From NCBI GenBank assembly GCA_964016885.1, contig OZ024753.1, positions 3,100,001-3,164,000 of the forward strand: a DNA stretch of 64,000 bases, given 5' to 3'. A program made the position numbers and the translations under genes. Below are positions 16,258 through 55,765 of this stretch, piece after piece; within the stretch, counting starts at the first letter, position 1, and each line of letters starts with the position of its first letter. Origin of the DNA: Eledone cirrhosa (lineage: Eukaryota). Under the pieces are notes generated by a model. The model saw only the letters and a program-made list of their open reading frames with translations. It ran no database searches and was not told the DNA's origin.

Positions 16258-16570
16258 TGACTGGATGGTTTTTGTCATGGCACCAGCATGCTTACTTTTC
16301 AGATGAACTGGGTGCTTTTTGTCATGGCACCAGCATGCTTACTTTTCAGATGAACTGGGTGCTTTTTGTCATGGCACCAGCATGCTTACTTTTCAGATGA
16401 ACTGGGTGCTTTTTGTCATGGCACCAGCATGCTTACTTTTCAGATGAACTGGGTGCTTTTTGTCATGGCACCAGCATGCTTACTTTTCAGATGAACTGGG
16501 TGCTTTTTGTCATGGCACCAGCATGCTTACTTTTCAGATGAACTGGGTGCTTTTTGTCATGGCACCAGCA
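16258..16570 (-). repeat. 47-bp minisatellite (~6.5 copies) inside an RTE-type tail (about 16060-16570)
   Basis: Unit GAACTGGGTGCTTTTTGTCATGGCACCAGCATGCTTACTTTTCAGAT, with starts at 16305, 16352, 16399, 16446, 16493 and 16540. Confidence 0.95.
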
Positions 16571-16896
16571 CTGTGGGGAGCAGATGTAGTGCATGTCCAT
16601 CTTTACATGCATGCATAAGTTGGACAGTAAAGTGCACCGGGGTTGTGGACGGTGTGACAGAGGGTATATCCTCATTGTTGTATATAAAGTTACTTGAGAG
16701 TGTTTTTGTATTATGTAAGCTTGAGTTCTTGATATGTAAACATAGAAGGAATGTATATATCTTATATATATATATTTTATATATATATATTTTATATATA
16801 TATATTTTATATATATATATATATATTTTATATATATTTTATATATATATATATATATTTTATATATATTTTATATATATATATTTTATATATATA

Positions 16897-17646
16897 AAGG
16901 CAGACTGTATGATGCGTGTATCCGAACAGCAATGTTACATGGTAGTGAGACCTGGGCGCTGAAGGTGGAAGACCTACGTAGATTAGAGAGAAACGAAGCC
17001 TGCATGCTCCGATGGATGTGTAACAGTAATATACGTGAACGACAAAGCATAAATGAATTGAGAGAGAGACTGAGCATAAGAGGAATCAAATGCTGCGTGC
17101 AGGAGAGGCGGTTACGCTGGTATGGACATGTGATGCGTATGAAGGATGACAGCTGCATAAAAAGGTGCAGAGCACTAGAAGTTGATGGAAACCGCGGAGT
17201 GGGGAGACCCAAGATGACTTGGGATGAGGTGATAAAAGCCGACCTTACCCAACTACACCTCTCAAAGTCAATGACACACGACCGTGACTTCTGGCGTCAC
17301 GCAGTAATACAGGGTACCCGACCTCCCATGGGTACATGCTGAAGCATATAAACAATATGCCCCCCCCCCCCCACCGCAAGGTGGTCGTGGAGGTGCCACG
17401 GCAAAAAAGCACCCAGCCCACACTGTAAAGTGGACGTGTAGGCGCCACGAAAAAGCACCCAGCACTCACTGTAAATGAGGTTGGTGTTAGGAAGGGCATC
17501 CAGCTGTAGAAATCAAGCCAGATCAGTTCCTGTATGAGCAAGGCATGGTCAGCCGACCAGACACTGCCCACAACAGGACAACCCGTCTAACCCATGCTAG
17601 CGTGGAAGAACGGACGTAAAACGGTGATGATGATGATGATGATGAT
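16897..17646 (+). mobile_element. 5'-truncated RTE-clade LINE (ORF C-terminus 16932-17342 plus 3' UTR)
   Basis: The ORF has HGSETW, RRLRWYGHVMRM, GRPKMTW and DRDFWR, all RTE C-terminal motifs, followed by a (GAT)n tail. Both flanks are a TATATATATTT-type repeat. Confidence 0.9.
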
Positions 17647-18035
17647 ATTTTATATATATATATATTTTATATATATATATTTTATATATATATATTTTAT
17701 ATATATATATTTTATATATATATATTTTATATATATATATTTTATATATATATATTTTATATATATATATTTTATATATATATATATTTTATATATATAT
17801 ATTTTATATATATATATTTTATATATGTAATCCTAAGAAGAACTCATGATCAGACTTGACAAGATGCATTTTCTGATAATGAAAAACATGTGATTTCTAG
17901 AAATACCTATAAACCAAGGATGTTTTTTGATGTAATACTAATACCATGTATTAATGTTTATAAAGATAGATTCTTAAGTAAGTAACTCATTACAATCTCT
18001 TTTTCTCTTTCTCTCTCTCTCTCTATATATATAAG

Positions 18036-18360
18036 TTTATCCTGGGTTCAATCAGGGGTAACCACAGTAAGTAACGTACTCAATACACAGCAGAGTATAA
18101 ATATTTAATATAGAAATGGCTTCTACAAGACTAGAACTGTTTCATTCGGGAGAAATCATCAGGAAGCCAACTGATCAAGTCGAGATCGAGTTTGGTCAGC
18201 ATAGTTTCTTGGTGATGGTTTTGAGGGGCACAGTAAGTGCTAAAAGATAAATTTATCCTGGGTTCAATTGGGGGTAACCACAGTAAGTAAGGTAGTCAAT
18301 ACATAGCAGAGTATAAATATTTAATATAGAAATGGCTTCTACAGGACTAGAATTGTTTCA
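18036..18360 (-). mobile_element. 1.5-mer tandem mini-element (216-bp period) with a hammerhead; Penelope pLTR/retrozyme-like
   Basis: 18036-18144 is repeated at 18252-18360, with (TA)n on both sides. Confidence 0.75.
18117..18169 (-). ncRNA. type I hammerhead ribozyme motif
   Basis: The minus strand reads TGGCTTC-CTGATGA-TTTCTCCCGAAT-GAAAC-AGTTCTAGTCTT-GTA-GAAGCCA: a perfect 7-bp stem I, an intact core and a GUA cleavage triplet. Confidence 0.8.
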
Positions 18361-18882
18361 ATATATATATATATATATAAGTATTGTATATTGAATAATA
18401 CAAACATATATAATATATATGTGTGTGTGTGTGTGTGTATATTTGAGGAACTACTGACTGCAGTTTGCTTAAATTATTGTGTATATGAAAAGTGGGTACA
18501 TTTTAGATGCAGTTACAATAAGAATAGCGTTGTAAATATTGTGGCATTAAACTTGGATGAGAAAGGGAAGGAAAAGGGAAAAACGTGGGGAACCAAAGAT
18601 AATGTTAACTTGGTAATATATATTATTTCCAATATTTTTCAAGTATACCTTCTATTTTCAAGGGATCTGTTGAGGACCTTGAAGAGTAACAGAGAGGCCC
18701 CTGTGTGGCTTGTGTTAAAGTTACAACTTCATTGTAGCAACTTCTGAATTCTATTTACACACACAGACACATATATGTGCGTGCATGTATGTATGTATAT
18801 ATACATGTATATATGCATACATATTTACACATAGATATATACGCACACACAGACACACACATACACACACATATGTATATAG

Positions 18883-20553: not shown

Positions 20554-20892
20554 GAGTTATAAACTCAAATAGTCTTTTACAATTAAATAGCTCAAAGAAA
20601 GGAATATTTGTGAGCCGTGTAATACAAATGAATACATGATAGGGATAAACACTGATACAACTATACATGTGTTCGCATTGCAAATGACTAAGTTAGCTAG
20701 ATTGAAAAATACTAATTAAAATAATACGGTTTGCCTGTCTTGATTTAAAATATTGATTTATTATTTTAAATCGAGACAGACAAACCGTATTATTTTAATT
20801 AGTATTTTTCAATCTAGCTAACTTGGTCATTTGCAATGCGAACACATGTATAGTTGTATCAGTGTTTATCCCTATCATATATTCATTTGTAT
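20554..20892 (-). mobile_element. foldback mini-element (131-bp inverted arms plus hairpin tail)
   Basis: Arms at 20622-20752 and 20762-20892 with about 4 mismatches. The tail 20554-20621 is similar to 26478-26550. (TA)n flanks. Confidence 0.75.
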
Positions 20893-22303: not shown

Positions 22304-24811
22304 TTTTGTCAGGTCACTCTTGAGTGCTACTCGTAACATGTAAACCAGTACAACCTGTCACATGGTCAGGTCGTCGGCGACTAAACTGGCAACCCCACTA
22401 AGTTTACTTGGTGAGGAACAGGATTTTGGACACCCTGCAAGACAAAAAACAAAACCTGACAAAGGGCGGAAGAACTGATAAGAGTCAAAGGCCATCCAAA
22501 AATGCGTAAATATGTATATACACATGTACATATGTATGTGTATGTATAAACGTGTGTATATATGCCTGGGGTGTCAGGGAGGGGCATGTACCTCTGTAGG
22601 TGGGGATAGCCATGCCCTTTTCAGGACGGTTCATCCTGCATTGGGTCCCACCTGACACTCAGCTTTCACCTGTGGCCCCAAGAAGCTGTAGCATGCGACA
22701 GCGGCCACACCCTGGTAAACCGCCTTGGCTGGCGGGCCCAACCAGGCTGAGGGTAGCCGGACGGGTCTGAAACCCCCGGTAAGTTAGATAGGGGGTGCCT
22801 GCCCCTGCATGAGAAGACTGGACCTGGCGGAGTGAGTGGAGGAGGACAACATCATCCCAACAGTCACGAAGGCGGCGACAGCAAATGGTGTGGAGCGCTA
22901 GGGCACAGCAAGGCACTACAGATGTCGTGACCATCCACTGTAGCCAAGGAAGTCCCTGGTCGTGACGGTCCTCCATACCACCGGATTCTGGCTTCTGCGG
23001 CCGAGTGAGTGGGACCGTCACTGTGCACTGGCCCTCACACTATAAATCTTTCCAGCACTCCCAAAGCCCTGCAGCAATGGGGGAGAGGCGGAGGTAACAG
23101 GTGGAAGTAACCTCTGGGAGTTGCCAGTCCCAAACACACACATGGGTGGTCTGGATACGCAAGTCGTTCTCCTCCTGACCCTGGGATGACAGAGAAGATC
23201 AGGCATTCCACCAGGCGACTAAGTAGCTCTTTTCAGGGGAGCACTGCTCACCCTCACACGAGGGGAGGGGCGATAAAAGGAGCCTTAACCAAATGCTCAT
23301 CCTGCACAAAGCCGGCCAGTCTACCACGGCTGGCGGTTTTACCCTTGCAAGCGGTCGAAACCAACATAAGAGAGAGAAGAACTTGATTCTTGGCGCACGG
23401 AATGTGCGCACCCTCATGGATAGGGAAACCTTGAGGCCAGAGAGAAGAACTGCCCTCATAGCAAGGGAATTAGATCGCTACCGGATTGACATAGCCGCCC
23501 TCAGCGAGACTAGACTCGCTGAAGAAGAATCAGTAACAGAACCGAAAGGAGGCTACACCTTCTTCTGGAAGGGCAATGCAAAGGACAAGGACAGAATCCA
23601 CGGGGTAGGCCTGGCCATCAGGACTTCACTCTGCAAGCAGCTACCAGACCTCCCAACACCTGTGAGTGAACGGCTGATGAAGCCCCGCTTCCCCCTCGAC
23701 CCATCTTGGCATGTCACAGTCATCAGCGCATACGCCCACACTCTGACCAGCAACGATGAAGCAAAGGATGCTTTCTACGGGGAACTCAACGCACTCGTGA
23801 AGGGCGTCGCCCCAAGCGATGAACTCATCCTACCGGGGGACTTCAACACAAGAGTCGGCTCTGACAACAACAACTGGTGAGGCATGCTGGGACCTCATGG
23901 CACAGGGAAGCTGAACTCTAACCGCCACATACTGTTGAGTTTCTGCGCCGAGAATGACCGCACCATCACCAGCACACTGTTCCGCCAGGCAGACACGTTC
24001 AAGATAACATGGATGCACCCCATATCCAAACAGTGGCATCTGATTGACCTTGCCATATGCTGCAGGAGGGACATCCGTGATGTCAGAATCACCAGGGCCA
24101 TGCGTGGTGCAGAGTATTGGACCGATCATCGCCTTGTCAGGACCATCCTGTCACTGCACATCACCCCGACGCCGCATCGCAAGACCCCGAAAGTCTGTAG
24201 GCCAGCCTTCGACATCGCACGACTCAAGCAGCCAGAGCATCGTGATGTGTTTTCGGAAGACCTGGACGGTCGGCTGACTGCCCATGGACCACTGACTGGA
24301 CCCCCAACTCAACAGTGGGACCAGTTCATGGCTGGAATAACCAGCGAAGCTATGATACTGAAGAGTTGACTTTGATGGGTGGGACATGTCATCCGGATGG
24401 ACGATCACAGGCTTCCGAAGCAACTGATGTATAGGGAACTCTGTTCGAGGAAACAAAAGCGGGGCAGGCCTCTCAAGAGGTTCAGAGACTGCGTGAAGTC
24501 CAGTATCAACAACACTGGAATCGCACCAAAACAACTCGAGTCCCATGCTCAGGACAGGACTGAGTGGCGAGCCCTTACCAGACGCGCCAAAGACTCTTTT
24601 GAAGAGAAGAGACGGGCAGAGGTCACTGAGGCCAGTGAAAGGAGGAGAAAGGCATCAACAGTTGCCCCAAGCGACTCCGGTCTCTTCCCCTGCCCCCACT
24701 GTCCCCGGACCTGCAAGTCAAGGATCGGCCTCCACAGCCACCTTCGTGCCCATGGCAGACGGGAACTAAAATAAAAAGGATGTCATCATCGTTTACGATG
24801 GACAACCAAGG
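22304..24811 (+). mobile_element. TSD-flanked chimeric RTE-clade element with the RT domain deleted
   Basis: A 14-bp direct repeat ACATATGTTTCTCT lies at 22290-22303 and 24812-24825. The body is GC-rich, with a 3' stem-loop GTCATCATCGTTTACGATGGAC. Confidence 0.9.
23293..24774 (+). pseudogene. RTE ORF remnant: APE endonuclease fused in frame to the C-terminal region with a CCHH zinc finger
   Basis: ORFs 23293, 23884 and 24379 share one frame. Motifs: NVRTL, IDIAALSETR, HGVGLAI, GDFN, TDH (APE), then WVGHVIRMDDHRLPK, GRPLKRFRD and CPHCPRTCKSRIGLHSHLRAH. Stops at 23878, 24367 and 24373. No YADD. The deletion junction is near 24327. Confidence 0.92.
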
Positions 24812-27069: not shown

Positions 27070-28030
27070 CCATCATCATCCATTTATACATTAATCTTTA
27101 ACATCAATCTTCCAGTTAGACGGTTTTGTTCCATTTGATGCAGGAATAGTTGAGAGACGTGTCTTGCTTGTACAGAAGTGTCCCTGGCAGGTTTTCTACG
27201 GTTGAATGCTCTTCCTAAACACCAACCACCTTTACGGTGTGAACTGGGAGCCTTTTTACCGTGTCTCCTACATGACCACCTTGCAGTGTGGACGGTGCTT
27301 TTTTACCGTGTCTCCTACATGACCACCTTGCAGTGTGGACTGGGTGCCTTTTTACCGTGTCTCCTACATGACCACCTTGCAGTGTGGACGGTGCTTTTTT
27401 ACCGTGTCTCCTACATGACCACCTTGCAGTGTGGACTGGGTGCCTTTTTACCGTGTCTCCTACATGACCACCTTGCAGTGTGGACTGGGTGCTTTTTACC
27501 GTGTCTCCTACATGACCACCTTGCAGTGTGGACTGGGTGCCTTTTTACCGTGTCTCCTACATGACCACCTTGCAGTGTGGACTGGGTGCTTTTTACCGTG
27601 TCTCCTACATGACCACCTTGCAGTGTGGACTGGGTGCTTTTTTACCGTGTCTCCTACATGACCACCTTGCAGTGTGGACTGGGTGCCTTTTTACCGTGTC
27701 TCCTACATGACCACCTTGCAGTGTGGACTGGGTGCCTTTTTACCGTGTCTCCTACATGACCACCTTGCAGTGTGGACTGGGTGCCTTTTTACCGTGTCTC
27801 CTACATGACCACCTTGCAGTGTGGACTGGGAGCCTTTTTACCGTGTCTCCTACATGACCACCTTGCAGTGTGGACTGGGTGCTTTTTTACCGTGTCTCCT
27901 ACATGACCACCTTGCAGTGTGGACTGGGTGCTTTTTGTTGTCTCATCGACACAGTGGACGGAAATGGAAGGATGGGGTAGCAGGTGTGTGGGGTGGTGTG
28001 TATATTGGGTTAAGAGGTGCCTACTGACTG
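27070..28030 (-). mobile_element. RTE-type 3' UTR copy with an expanded internal minisatellite
   Basis: 27938-28030 is reverse-complementary to about 14036-14130. (CAT)n tail at 27070. Confidence 0.8.
27237..27937 (-). repeat. 48-49-bp minisatellite, ~14 copies
   Basis: Unit GTGTGGACTGGGTGCCTTTTTACCGTGTCTCCTACATGACCACCTTGCA. Confidence 0.95.
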
Positions 28031-29626: not shown

Positions 29627-29960
29627 TCATCATCATTTAATGTATGTGTTTCAGGCTTTCATGGGTTAGTTGGACTGTCATATACTGAGGCCAGTCTGGT
29701 CAGCTGATTAAGTTCTGTTCATATGCTCTATTTTGGGCTTGGTTTATATGCCTCGATGTCTTTCCTGATGTCAACAACTTCTCAGTGTGTAATGCGAGAA
29801 TTTTATTGTGACTCCAGCACTACCAATTTACTGGGTGGACTGGGTGATTTTTAACAAGATACATGCACTACCAATTTGCAGGGTGGACTGGGTGCTTTTT
29901 AACGATACCTGGACTACCACCTTATAAGTTGAAGTGGAAGCTTTTCATCATGGAACCAGC
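29627..29960 (-). mobile_element. decayed RTE-type tail
   Basis: (CAT)n followed by GGACTGGGTGCTTTTT repeats. Confidence 0.55.
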
Positions 29961-30990: not shown

Positions 30991-31187
30991 TGGAGGCACA
31001 AGGAGATTAGCAATTGAAACACAATGGTTGTAATATTTTCTTCTTATCCTAAAGTTTATATATACATTTGTAGATTCCCAAGTTGTGTTGTGTTGGGGGT
31101 GGGGGGTGGGGGTGGGGGGTGGGGGTAACCAGTTAAAAAAAGGTACTCAATAGAGTATAGGCATCTTTTATATATAGATAGATAGAT

Positions 31188-31243
31188 GGAATTTCCTGAT
31201 GATTTCATACAAATGAAACACATCTAGTCCTCTAGAAGTCATT
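31188..31243 (+). ncRNA. decayed hammerhead motif related to 18117-18169
   Basis: TTC-CTGATGA-TTTCATACAAAT-GAAAC-ACATCTAGTCCT-CTA-GAAGTCA. It lies between TA-rich microsatellites. Confidence 0.55.
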
Positions 31244-31466
31244 TAGTTTTTTCTTTCTATCTCAACGAAACTTGAGTACCTGTGTATGTCACTGTTGTAA
31301 TTATTTATATATATATATATATATATATATCACCATAGTTTAACATCCATTTTCTATGCTAGGATGGGTTAGACGGGTTATTCTGTCGTGGGCAATGCCA
31401 GGTGAGGTGACCATATCTTGCTCATACAGAATGATTTGGGCTTGATTACAGTTGGATGCCCTTCCT

Positions 31467-41789: not shown

Positions 41790-42709
41790 ATGTATGTGTA
41801 TATATATATATATACATATGTATATATATATAGGTGTATGTATGTATATGTTATGTATGCATATATGTATATATATATACATTAATTCAAAATATTAATA
41901 AATATAGACATTCATGTGATCAAATATATTTTATTATACATATTTCAGAGGTACTGTGCTATTTCATCAGTACGTCCTCATCAGATAAAATAAATTGATG
42001 TCTGACATACCTCAACTGTGCTGATGGTTCAAATCCAGTCTATATATATACTTTGCAAAAGTAGACTGATTTCATAATGCTAATGTTATTAATAAGATGT
42101 GTCTAGTAGATTGAATCAGCCTGGAATATTACTGGTGACAACATATGAAAACTCCAATATTTATTAAATCAATTCACATCATATTCTATTTCAATATTTT
42201 CAACTATCTTTTTTTATATCTAACAGCATCTAGACTAATATAAAAATAATTGATATCTACCTAACAAATATGTAAATTTTATTTACAGTTGTATAAATAA
42301 CATTATAACTTGTTCATAATTCTTTCAGAAGGAAAATATAAACAGAAATATAAACACTTATAATAAATACAATTAACTATTGCTAAGAACCTCACACATA
42401 TAATGCACCAAAATATACGAGCAGCATGAGAGAGAAAAAATTGGGAACAGAAACAACCATCCATTCACCACCAAGTATGACAATCGGCCACACTTTGCAC
42501 AGGTCAGCAGAATATTTTGATATTAGAATAGGTATACAAACACTAATAACAAACAAAAAAGTACACCTATGTTATATTAAGTAGGACTGATTTATATATA
42601 TTACTGGTATCTCAGATATTTCAGAGGGTTCAGTTATAATGGTGTGTCACAAAGGTAAAGGGAAAGTATTCACCAAGCAAATCACTAGAATGATACACAG
42701 ACACTTCAG

Positions 42710-54225: not shown

Positions 54226-55484
54226 TCTATGGAAAAAATATTGACCATATTGTAACAAGTTGTAAAATATTAGCTGAGGAAGAATACAGGGGATGCCAGG
54301 ATAAGGTCTGTCTTAATTTTCACAGCTCAATTTATGAACAAAAAGAGAATGATATAATACCTCATAGAGAAGGACTGGCAACATATCACAGACAAATTAT
54401 GTTGGTGGAAGTATGCAGGGACTGTAAGTATAATGTCGAGTACAATATTGAACAGGGGAGGACGGGAGCGAGGAGGAGGAGGAGAAGAAGAAGAAGAAGA
54501 CGGCGAAGAAGACAAAGACGAAGACAACAACAAACATGAAGACAAAGAAGATTATGATAATATCAGTTTTAGTAAGAAAGTTTCATGTACTGATTATAGC
54601 AGACTAATTGTCACAACAATGATGATGATGTTGATGGCTGTTGTATGATAATACAAATGTTGGATACTAAGCAGAAATAATTTGAAATGATTGATGATGT
54701 GATTGGTGGTGTGCTGATATAGAGTTAGAAAATGGTGACAGATGGAAAATAGTTGTTAGCTATTGCTAGGTTTGATACAGCTGCTAGCAAGCAATAAGTA
54801 TGTAATTTAAGGTGATTGTTATGATGAGCTATAGAGAATAATGATTGGATTTTGGATAGAGTAATGGTAGGTGTTGAGTATGGAGTGCTTGTGTGTATAT
54901 ATATGTGCTTGTGTATATATATATATATGTTTAAATATATATATATATTTAAATTTATATATATTTATATATATTTAAATTTTATGTATATTTATATATA
55001 TTTAAATTTATATATATATATGTATGTATATAAATATAGGGGAGAATATATTACTTTTATTCTAATCTAATAGAATGATAACAGTAGCTGTGAGAATGTG
55101 TGATTAATGGTAATATTTGTAAGAAAGGGGAAGTTAGCATAGGTATATTACAGCTAAATATATAATATATAGGCTGTATAGAAAGGATGGTGATTTATTT
55201 AGGTAAAGGTCCCTAAACCAATGATGGAGTAATGTAAATGGTAAGGGGTTAATGTCCATTTTCCAGGCTAGCAGGGGTTAGATGAGTTGTCCCATTGTGC
55301 AACAAGTCAGATCAAACAGCCAGGTCTTGCTCATACTGAACTGTTTCTGGTTTGGTTCCTATGACTGGAAGCCCTTCGTAATGCTAACCATATTTACAGG
55401 ATGGATTGCGTGATTTTTATTGTAGCACCAAAATGACTAATTGATAGGTTGGATTGGATACTATTTTACCATGTCACCAATACG

Positions 55485-55765
55485 ACTATTTTACAGTGTG
55501 GACTGGGTGTTTTTTGACATGACACCAACCAACATGACCACTTTACAGTGTGGACTGGGTGTTTTTTGACATGACACCAACCAACATGACCACTTTACAG
55601 TGTGGACTGGGCGTTTTTTGACAGGACACCAACCAACATGACCACTTTACAGTGTGGACTGGGCATTTTTTGTCAGGACACCAACCAACATGACCATTTT
55701 ACAGTGTGGACTGGGCATTTTTTGTCATGACACAAACACAATACAGTGTGGACTAGATGCTTTTT
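55485..55765 (-). repeat. 52-bp minisatellite (~5 copies) within an RTE-type tail (about 55250-55770)
   Basis: CAGTGTGGACTGGG starts at 55494, 55546, 55598, 55650 and 55702. Confidence 0.9.

What the first reader, a model, noticed from the sequence alone, without database searches (positions are those of the whole stretch)
18036..18360. 216-bp-period 1.5-mer with an intact hammerhead: retrozyme-like unit
Seen: 109 bp are repeated 216 bp apart. The minus strand has a complete hammerhead at 18117-18169 (7-bp stem I, GUA site), and the second repeat breaks off inside the hammerhead just at GAAAC. Inference: cleavage at equivalent sites would release a ~216-nt monomer, in the size range described for animal non-LTR retrozymes. 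A rolling or tandem template would explain the partial second copy.
Basis: partly seen in the sequence, partly recalled or inferred. Interest (0 to 1): 0.75.

Follow-up and report, generated by a model that had tools for sequence, protein, structure and literature searches.

The report
Gutted Penelope retrotransposon with one hammerhead
The repeat and the self-cutting RNA motif are real, but they are the two ends of a very common Penelope-type jumping gene joined with about 5 kb missing, likely a one-off copying slip rather than a copy of a circular-RNA element; cutting is untested.

Summary
Observation confirmed: two 114-bp copies 216 bp apart (93% alike), one complete type I hammerhead (minus strand 18169-18117), and an upstream copy that starts at GAAAC. 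The 102 bp between the copies are the 5'UTR and first 23 nt of the ORF of a Penelope-like element (PLE) with Hydra-clade motifs, joined to 17-18 nt of its own end repeat (pLTR); about 5 kb are missing. The family has at least 22,651 hammerhead copies and 139 exact ORF starts. This junction occurs once in 3.0 Gb, and the locus has one complete core, so it fails two retrozyme criteria. Best reading: one insertion in (TA)n whose middle was skipped (RT jump, or later deletion). Side result: 56 of 100 copies stop exactly at the first base of stem I, 30 nt after a TATA box, the likely RNA 5' end. The scan has noted similar gutted PLE dimers in other genomes. Known kind; modest interest.

The parts
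18361..18380 (.). (TA)n target repeat at the 5' side of the insertion
   Evidence: sequence; family copies end in (TA)n
18248..18360 (-). Upstream, 5'-truncated pLTR copy: 3' half of the hammerhead (GAAAC, stem III, GUA with predicted cut after 18340, 3' strand of stem I) and the rest of the pLTR; no catalytic core
18203..18247 (-). 5'UTR of the PLE, including the ~30-35 nt stretch that corresponds in place and size to the PLE 'tail' (inferred)
   Evidence: collinear with intact elements L004, L007, L009, L068; short junctions cluster at its end
18180..18202 (-). Start codon and first 23 nt of the PLE RT-endonuclease ORF
   Evidence: same codons open the 546-aa stop-free frame of L068 and the frames of L044-L060
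18179..18180 (-). Junction: ORF nt +23 joined to the pLTR 17-18 nt before the hammerhead core; one shared base; about 5 kb of the element missing
   Evidence: single-copy in the genome; element period about 5 kb
18117..18169 (-). Complete type I hammerhead motif; core starts at 18162; predicted cut after 18124; stem III loop holds a 4-nt palindrome
18032..18179 (-). Downstream pLTR copy ending at the family's usual 3' terminus (boundary uncertain by a few bases inside TA)
   Evidence: most top hits end at the same place followed by TA
18024..18031 (.). (TA)n target repeat at the 3' side, followed by (GA)n
   Evidence: sequence

Best explanation
This is a single aged insertion of a Penelope-like retrotransposon in a (TA)n repeat, made of the element's two end regions with about 5 kb of the middle missing, likely because the reverse transcriptase jumped while copying. 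Shown: the parts, the junction, its single copy, and the parent family. Inferred: the enzyme was primed at the nicked (TA)n, began at the family's usual 3' terminus in the downstream pLTR of a read-through RNA, copied about 150 nt through the hammerhead, jumped to ORF nt +23, copied 181 nt more and stopped inside the upstream hammerhead. A later DNA deletion from a full-length copy would leave the same sequence and is counted inside this explanation. The hammerhead is a passenger from the pLTR; the locus has lost the family's TATA box and is predicted to be silent unless read through.
For: Query positions 1-181 are collinear with pLTR-5'UTR-ORF of intact elements and 181-330 with the pLTR. Parent ORF has RT and GIY-YIG features and 570 homologues at E<=1e-10 among 7,987 scored. 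Junction found once with up to 2 mismatches. All 17 loci with a junction on the ORF side have different junctions, counting one segmental pair as one locus. In a position-ordered sample of 90 ORF-start loci, ORF-to-pLTR skips of many sizes (+17 to +425, one complex at +1322) and two skips inside the ORF occur. The two copies differ at 8 of 110 sites and share only two non-majority bases, both at sites split about evenly in the 27 relatives, so neither is a late local duplicate of the other. Microhomology-mediated internal deletions of PLEs are described (PMC3846280 passages); PLE RT starts internally and uses uncut RNA in vitro (PMC11167929).
Against: A jump cannot be told from copying 1.5 turns of a 216-nt circle at a single locus. 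Four loci of the family repeat one junction 2 to 5 times, which a random jump would not do. The 216-nt unit as a circle folds somewhat better than shuffles (z -2.2, 100 shuffles). The upstream site could in principle be cut by the downstream core: that fold is 2.0 kcal/mol above the minimum, the own-site fold 5.6. Only one shared base at the junction, so little microhomology. Exact patterns miss decayed copies, so counts are lower bounds.
Confidence: 0.74

Rival explanations
1. The insertion was copied 1.5 times round a 216-nt RNA circle made by double hammerhead cleavage of a deleted master copy, that is, a true retrozyme progeny.
For: Arrays with one repeated junction, a normal PLE 3' end and in two cases an inverted 5' arm: 191 nt x 4 cores at 189-191 of 191 identity (L228), 195 nt x 5 cores (L253), 222 nt x 3 (L072), 261 nt x 2 (L168). 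Circle fold z -2.2. Model proposed in PMC4209133 and PMC7229834.
Against: No master and no sister copy with this junction, nor for the four arrays. In L253, units 2 and 4 share four diagnostic columns against units 1 and 3, a higher-order repeat that points to DNA-level duplication. The inverted arm of that locus carries normal upstream pLTR with the TATA region, which a 195-nt circle would not hold. Eight of nine tested Xenopus dimers did not cleave in vitro (10.64898/2026.07.22.740005).
Confidence: 0.18
2. A solo pLTR with a short ORF-bearing extension was duplicated in place by slippage or unequal crossing-over, or two separate insertions landed head to tail in the same TA repeat.
For: Copies that end at ORF +16 to +20 and +64 against TA exist (7 of 90 loci), so a copy ending near +23 is possible. 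DNA-level duplication is visible at L253 and probably L072.
Against: No TA tract at the junction. The two copies share no private change. A simple duplication would not bring in the 17-18 nt upstream of the core and the 5'UTR from different sides without a pre-existing junction.
Confidence: 0.08

Closest known systems
Hydra-clade EN+ Penelope-like elements (Craig et al. 2021, PMC8557442; sections 6 and 11 and passages read)
   Same: Parent has one ~700-codon ORF with C-terminal GIY-YIG, RWR/RWK, DKT, CxCx5C linker, CxxC and CxH motifs, a hammerhead in the pLTR, (TA)n targets, partial tandems and inverted 5' arms.
   Different: Hammerhead-to-hammerhead period is about 5 kb because of a long microsatellite spacer after the ORF, against 'generally under 3 kb'. 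The window copy keeps only 23 nt of ORF. No tree was built.
Animal non-LTR retrozymes (Cervera and de la Pena 2020, PMC7229834, part 2, passages and Discussion read; Li, Clavereau and Pollet 2026, 10.64898/2026.07.22.740005, parts 1-3 of 5 read)
   Same: Non-coding unit of 150-450 nt, type I hammerhead, GC 38%, derived from a PLE pLTR as the 2026 preprint proposes.
   Different: One complete hammerhead, not two consecutive ones; junction not amplified; no RNA shown. The unit is traceable base by base to one PLE and still carries its start codon.
[quoted passage not shown]
   Same: Type I motif in the pLTR, palindromic loop 3 suited to a dimer, thousands of solo copies.
   Different: Stem II is 3 bp with U-U in place of the conserved G10.1-C11.1 pair; stem I is 6 bp and stem III 4 bp.
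PAc, Poseidon element of Anolis (Frangieh et al. 2024, PMC11167929; parts 1-2 of 4 read)
   Same: Internal RT start, two start sites bounding a tail, AT-rich targets, little sign of cut RNA as template.
   Different: Here the hammerhead lies 175 nt before the start codon rather than overlapping it, and the RT starts are in the pLTR and 5'UTR; these are inferred from genomic ends, not measured.

Membership tests
Non-LTR retrozyme | At least two consecutive units each with a complete type I hammerhead (definition of 10.64898/2026.07.22.740005) | tested here: not met
   One core; the upstream copy starts at GAAAC. Met at four other loci of the family.
Non-LTR retrozyme | The unit is amplified as its own family at many loci | tested here: not met
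   Junction found once in 3.0 Gb with up to 2 mismatches.
Non-LTR retrozyme | Non-coding unit of about 150-450 nt, GC under 50% | tested here: met
   216 nt, GC 38%; only 23 nt of ORF.
Non-LTR retrozyme | Highly self-paired circular monomer | tested here: inconclusive
   54% paired, -32.6 kcal/mol, z -2.2 against 100 shuffles.
Non-LTR retrozyme | Expressed as linear and circular monomer RNA; self-cleaves | not testable with these tools
   Needs RNA and in vitro assays.
Type I hammerhead ribozyme | Core CUGAnGA, GAAA, NUH with stems I-III | tested here: met
   Core intact; six stem I positions 86-94% paired in 144 copies, two of them switching A-U to C-G or G-C between subfamilies; flanking positions 10-44%. 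These are two or three events, not 144. Stems II and III are nearly invariant and partly fixed by the search motif.
Type I hammerhead ribozyme | G10.1-C11.1 pair closing stem II | tested here: not met
   U-U in 158 of 159 copies, a position fixed in part by the search motif; also U-U in the window copy.
Type I hammerhead ribozyme | Match to an Rfam hammerhead model | tested here: not met
   None at E<=10 in 17950-18400 or E<=1 in the window.
EN+ Penelope-like element (parent family) | Single ORF with RT and GIY-YIG endonuclease | tested here: met
   546-aa stop-free frame with a YRDD motif and a downstream GIY-YIG-like region in L068 and L069; Pfam GIY-YIG E 0.0067, below its cut-off, and no Pfam hit for the RT part; 570 homologues, most listed ones ~700 aa.
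EN+ Penelope-like element (parent family) | pLTRs with hammerhead, partial tandems, inverted 5' arms, tail | tested here: met
   6 of 7 long elements followed up have a downstream hammerhead; 32 of the first 100 core hits are head-to-head pairs under 30 nt apart (counted by hand).
Hydra clade of PLEs | RWK, DKT, CxCx5C linker, CxxC and CxH motifs, (TA)n targets | tested here: met
   Read by eye from translations: RWR in most copies, RWK in L055; the rest present in L068/L069.
Hydra clade of PLEs | Generally under 3 kb | tested here: not met
   Period about 5.0 and 5.2 kb in two elements worked out; ORF itself about 2.1 kb.
Hydra clade of PLEs | RT phylogeny; absence of the CCHH motif | not tested
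   No reference sequences of named clades were at hand; the paper's supplements were not read.

The most novel reading that the evidence does not exclude
This family shows retrozymes being born: its RNA starts at the first base of the hammerhead, the enzyme keeps joining the start of the ORF region back to the hammerhead (43 loci found), and some of these 170-260 nt units, possibly this one, are then copied round an RNA circle or by repeated telomerase-like realignment into 3- to 5-unit arrays in one insertion. That would give a base-level route from a named PLE to retrozyme arrays.
Probability: 0.3. Interest if true: 0.6.

Novelty: new member of a known kind. Interest (0 to 1): 0.3.

Why it matters
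The locus alone is ordinary debris of a common retrotransposon. The family is more useful: the origin of animal retrozymes from PLE ends is so far argued from co-occurrence and trees (2026 preprint), and PLE tandem formation is called unexplained in PMC2377424. Here dozens of independent junctions, a few young arrays, and a sharp inferred RNA 5' end at the hammerhead give concrete substrates to test jump against circle with one purified enzyme.

Tried and rejected
Rfam scans found no hammerhead. No RNA holder listed for the stretch; this says nothing about expression. Four contig sets of unknown kind laid on the locus gave very deep family cover, no piece spanning the locus, and several other short joints between 5'UTR and hammerhead; not used as support. 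Test for cut RNA as template: 54 hits for TA joined at the cut site against 64 at a control site 10 nt upstream; the first pattern missed most of the window's subfamily, and about 5 of the 12 loci inspected were fold-back inversions, so there is no clear excess, and either count is small beside 22,651 cores. Back-splicing as source of the junction: rejected, no GT after ORF +23 in intact copies. Clustering of junctions near the start codon: not claimed, since my patterns and 5' truncation both favour it. Arrays occurring only among junctions upstream of the inferred RNA start (0 of 22 against 4 of 19, p 0.04): hand-sorted after the fact, one array is borderline; not relied on. The automatic junction parser parsed 41 of 43 loci and misplaced several, the window's among them; positions quoted for those are read by eye. 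Pfam on four homologues gave one weak GIY-YIG hit. Sequence look-up in earlier findings was empty. No host gene was evident among 29 long frames in the window. The host species was not established; one paper search used 'octopus' on a guess from genome size and repeats and added nothing. Novelty searches were made; none listed a paper on this family, but supplements (PMC8557442, the 2026 preprint) were not read and may hold it.

Full report
Observation. The repeat is there: 18031-18144 and 18247-18360, 114 nt, 93% identical, 216 apart, between TA repeats. On the minus strand 18169-18117 holds a type I hammerhead with core at 18162 and a GUA site cut after 18124; the upstream copy starts at GAAAC and has no core. 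Rfam does not recognise the motif and alone it folds no better than shuffles. Across 159 distinct family copies, six stem I positions are 86-94% paired in the 144 that keep the 5' strand, two of them change on both sides between subfamilies, and the four loop 2 bases vary freely; stem II is 3 bp closed by U-U, and stem III is 4 bp with a palindrome in its loop. The motif is therefore real as a family structure. Cleavage is untested.

What the unit is. A genome search gave 5,150 first-look candidates, 40 scored. Hits cover either query 1-181 or 181-330, breaking at window position 18180. Where 1-181 continues, it runs into a long ORF whose first codons are the window's 18202-18180; where 181-330 continues upstream, it runs into more pLTR with a TATA box. 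The parent ORF has a 546-aa stop-free frame in L068, RT and GIY-YIG features, and the motifs that PMC8557442 (section 11) lists for the Hydra clade; 570 relatives were found among 7,987 scored. Six of seven long elements followed downstream have a second hammerhead, about 5.0 and 5.2 kb from the first in the two I worked out, across a long microsatellite spacer. The window unit is thus pLTR end, 5'UTR, 23 nt of ORF, a junction with one shared base, and pLTR, with about 5 kb missing.

Family counts. The hammerhead core pattern has 22,651 exact hits, control 0; the ORF start has 139. Most copies are short 3' ends. The window's junction has one hit with up to 2 mismatches. Gap patterns and an ordered sample gave 17 loci with a junction on the ORF side, all different, and 26 loci (29 hits) with a junction in the 5'UTR or just past the start codon. 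Of these 26, 22 rejoin within 3-8 nt of the core. Two of them, on different chromosomes (L218, L232), share one junction string; with both ends at hot spots this may be recurrence, but a shared template is not excluded. I examined 90 loci from the first 100 of the 139 ORF-start hits.

Inferred RNA 5' end. A TATA box lies 35-39 nt before the core in six of seven references. Of the first 100 of 544 hits for the window's subfamily, 56 stop exactly at the first G of stem I, 36 of them with an extra G; 40 continue into pLTR and 4 stop 1-3 nt further up (counted by hand; the pattern drops copies with C six places upstream). Some of the Gs come from fold-back arms, but seven follow TA directly. In 30 position-ordered copies of all subfamilies, 16 stopped within 7 nt by script, 14 after correcting by eye for indels and subfamily mismatch. 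I read this as the capped 5' end of the transcript; that RT copies a cap G is recalled knowledge, not from a call. The window copy extends 17-18 nt upstream of the core, beyond that point, so its downstream half was likely copied from the far pLTR of a read-through RNA.

How it likely arose. One priming at (TA)n, start at the usual 3' terminus, about 150 nt of copying, a jump to ORF +23, 181 nt more, and a stop inside the upstream hammerhead. A later deletion from a full-length copy gives the same result. The two copies differ at 8 of 110 sites, sit 6 and 7 differences from the majority of 27 relatives (relatives 1-7), share no private change, and have decayed one CpG in opposite directions: an aged insertion, not a recent local duplication. 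Internal RT start, tails and use of uncut RNA are shown for an Anolis PLE (PMC11167929); internal deletions with microhomology for rotifer PLEs (PMC3846280).

Could it release 216 nt? Only if one core cuts both sites. The upstream copy supplies the substrate strand and the palindrome; the fold that uses it is 2.0 kcal/mol above the minimum and the own-site fold 5.6, with helix probabilities of 0.1 or less in the 330-nt RNA. Not excluded, not favoured. The locus lacks the TATA box.

Four loci repeat one junction: 191 nt with four cores and 189-191 of 191 identity plus an inverted arm (L228), 195 nt with five cores plus an inverted arm (L253), 222 nt with three (L072), 261 nt with two (L168). 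They meet the 2026 preprint's working definition of a retrozyme. None has a sister locus in the pattern searches. L253 shows an alternating pattern in four columns, which points to DNA-level duplication of a dimer, and L072 units 1 and 2 share changes. So circle copying is possible but not needed for all of them.

Comparison and verdict. It works like a dead-on-arrival PLE deletion copy, and resembles a retrozyme monomer in size and make-up; it is not a member of the retrozymes by two tested criteria. That retrozymes derive from pLTRs is already argued in 10.64898/2026.07.22.740005 and suggested in PMC7229834. Earlier notes of this scan describe similar gutted dimers in other genomes; I saw them after forming my reading and did not check them. 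New member of a known kind; interest 0.3.

Noticed in passing
window 41925-41995, minus strand: A second, unrelated hammerhead-like motif (core at 41984, long stem II, AT-rich stem I, z -2.25) upstream of a TA repeat; probably the end of another PLE family.
   Followed up: partly
window 31193-31244, plus strand, with 31095-31160: An older, diverged copy of the same family's hammerhead with a decayed inverted arm before it.
   Followed up: partly
L228 (G000:C4:279228000-279229500 region) and L253 (G000:C9:23835000-23836700 region): Young four-core 191-nt array and five-core 195-nt array of this family, each with normal PLE 3' end and an inverted arm; better retrozyme candidates than the window locus.
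   Followed up: partly
family-wide: Over half of the copies stop at the first base of hammerhead stem I, 30 nt after a conserved TATA box, often with an extra G: likely transcription start and cap signature.
   Followed up: partly
L139, L151, L156, L165, L167 downstream of ORF +2300: Full-length elements carry about 2 kb of mixed TA/TG microsatellite between ORF and pLTR, starting shortly after a GT donor-like motif; possibly a retained intron.
   Followed up: no
window 20622-20892: Inverted repeat with 131-nt arms, 97% complementary, 9 nt apart, next to a TA repeat; MITE-like or a fold-back insertion.
   Followed up: no
window 16260-16570, 27225-27936, 29817-29919, 55476-55737: Related 47-52 nt tandem arrays, likely parts of one common short repeat family.
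   Followed up: no
window 16886-17640: A fragment that by recall reads like an RTE-type LINE end with a short-repeat tail; a near-identical stretch sits inside the spacer of two PLE copies, L069 and L195.
   Followed up: no
window 23227-24774: Broken frames that by recall read like the endonuclease and C-terminus of an RTE-type LINE.
   Followed up: no
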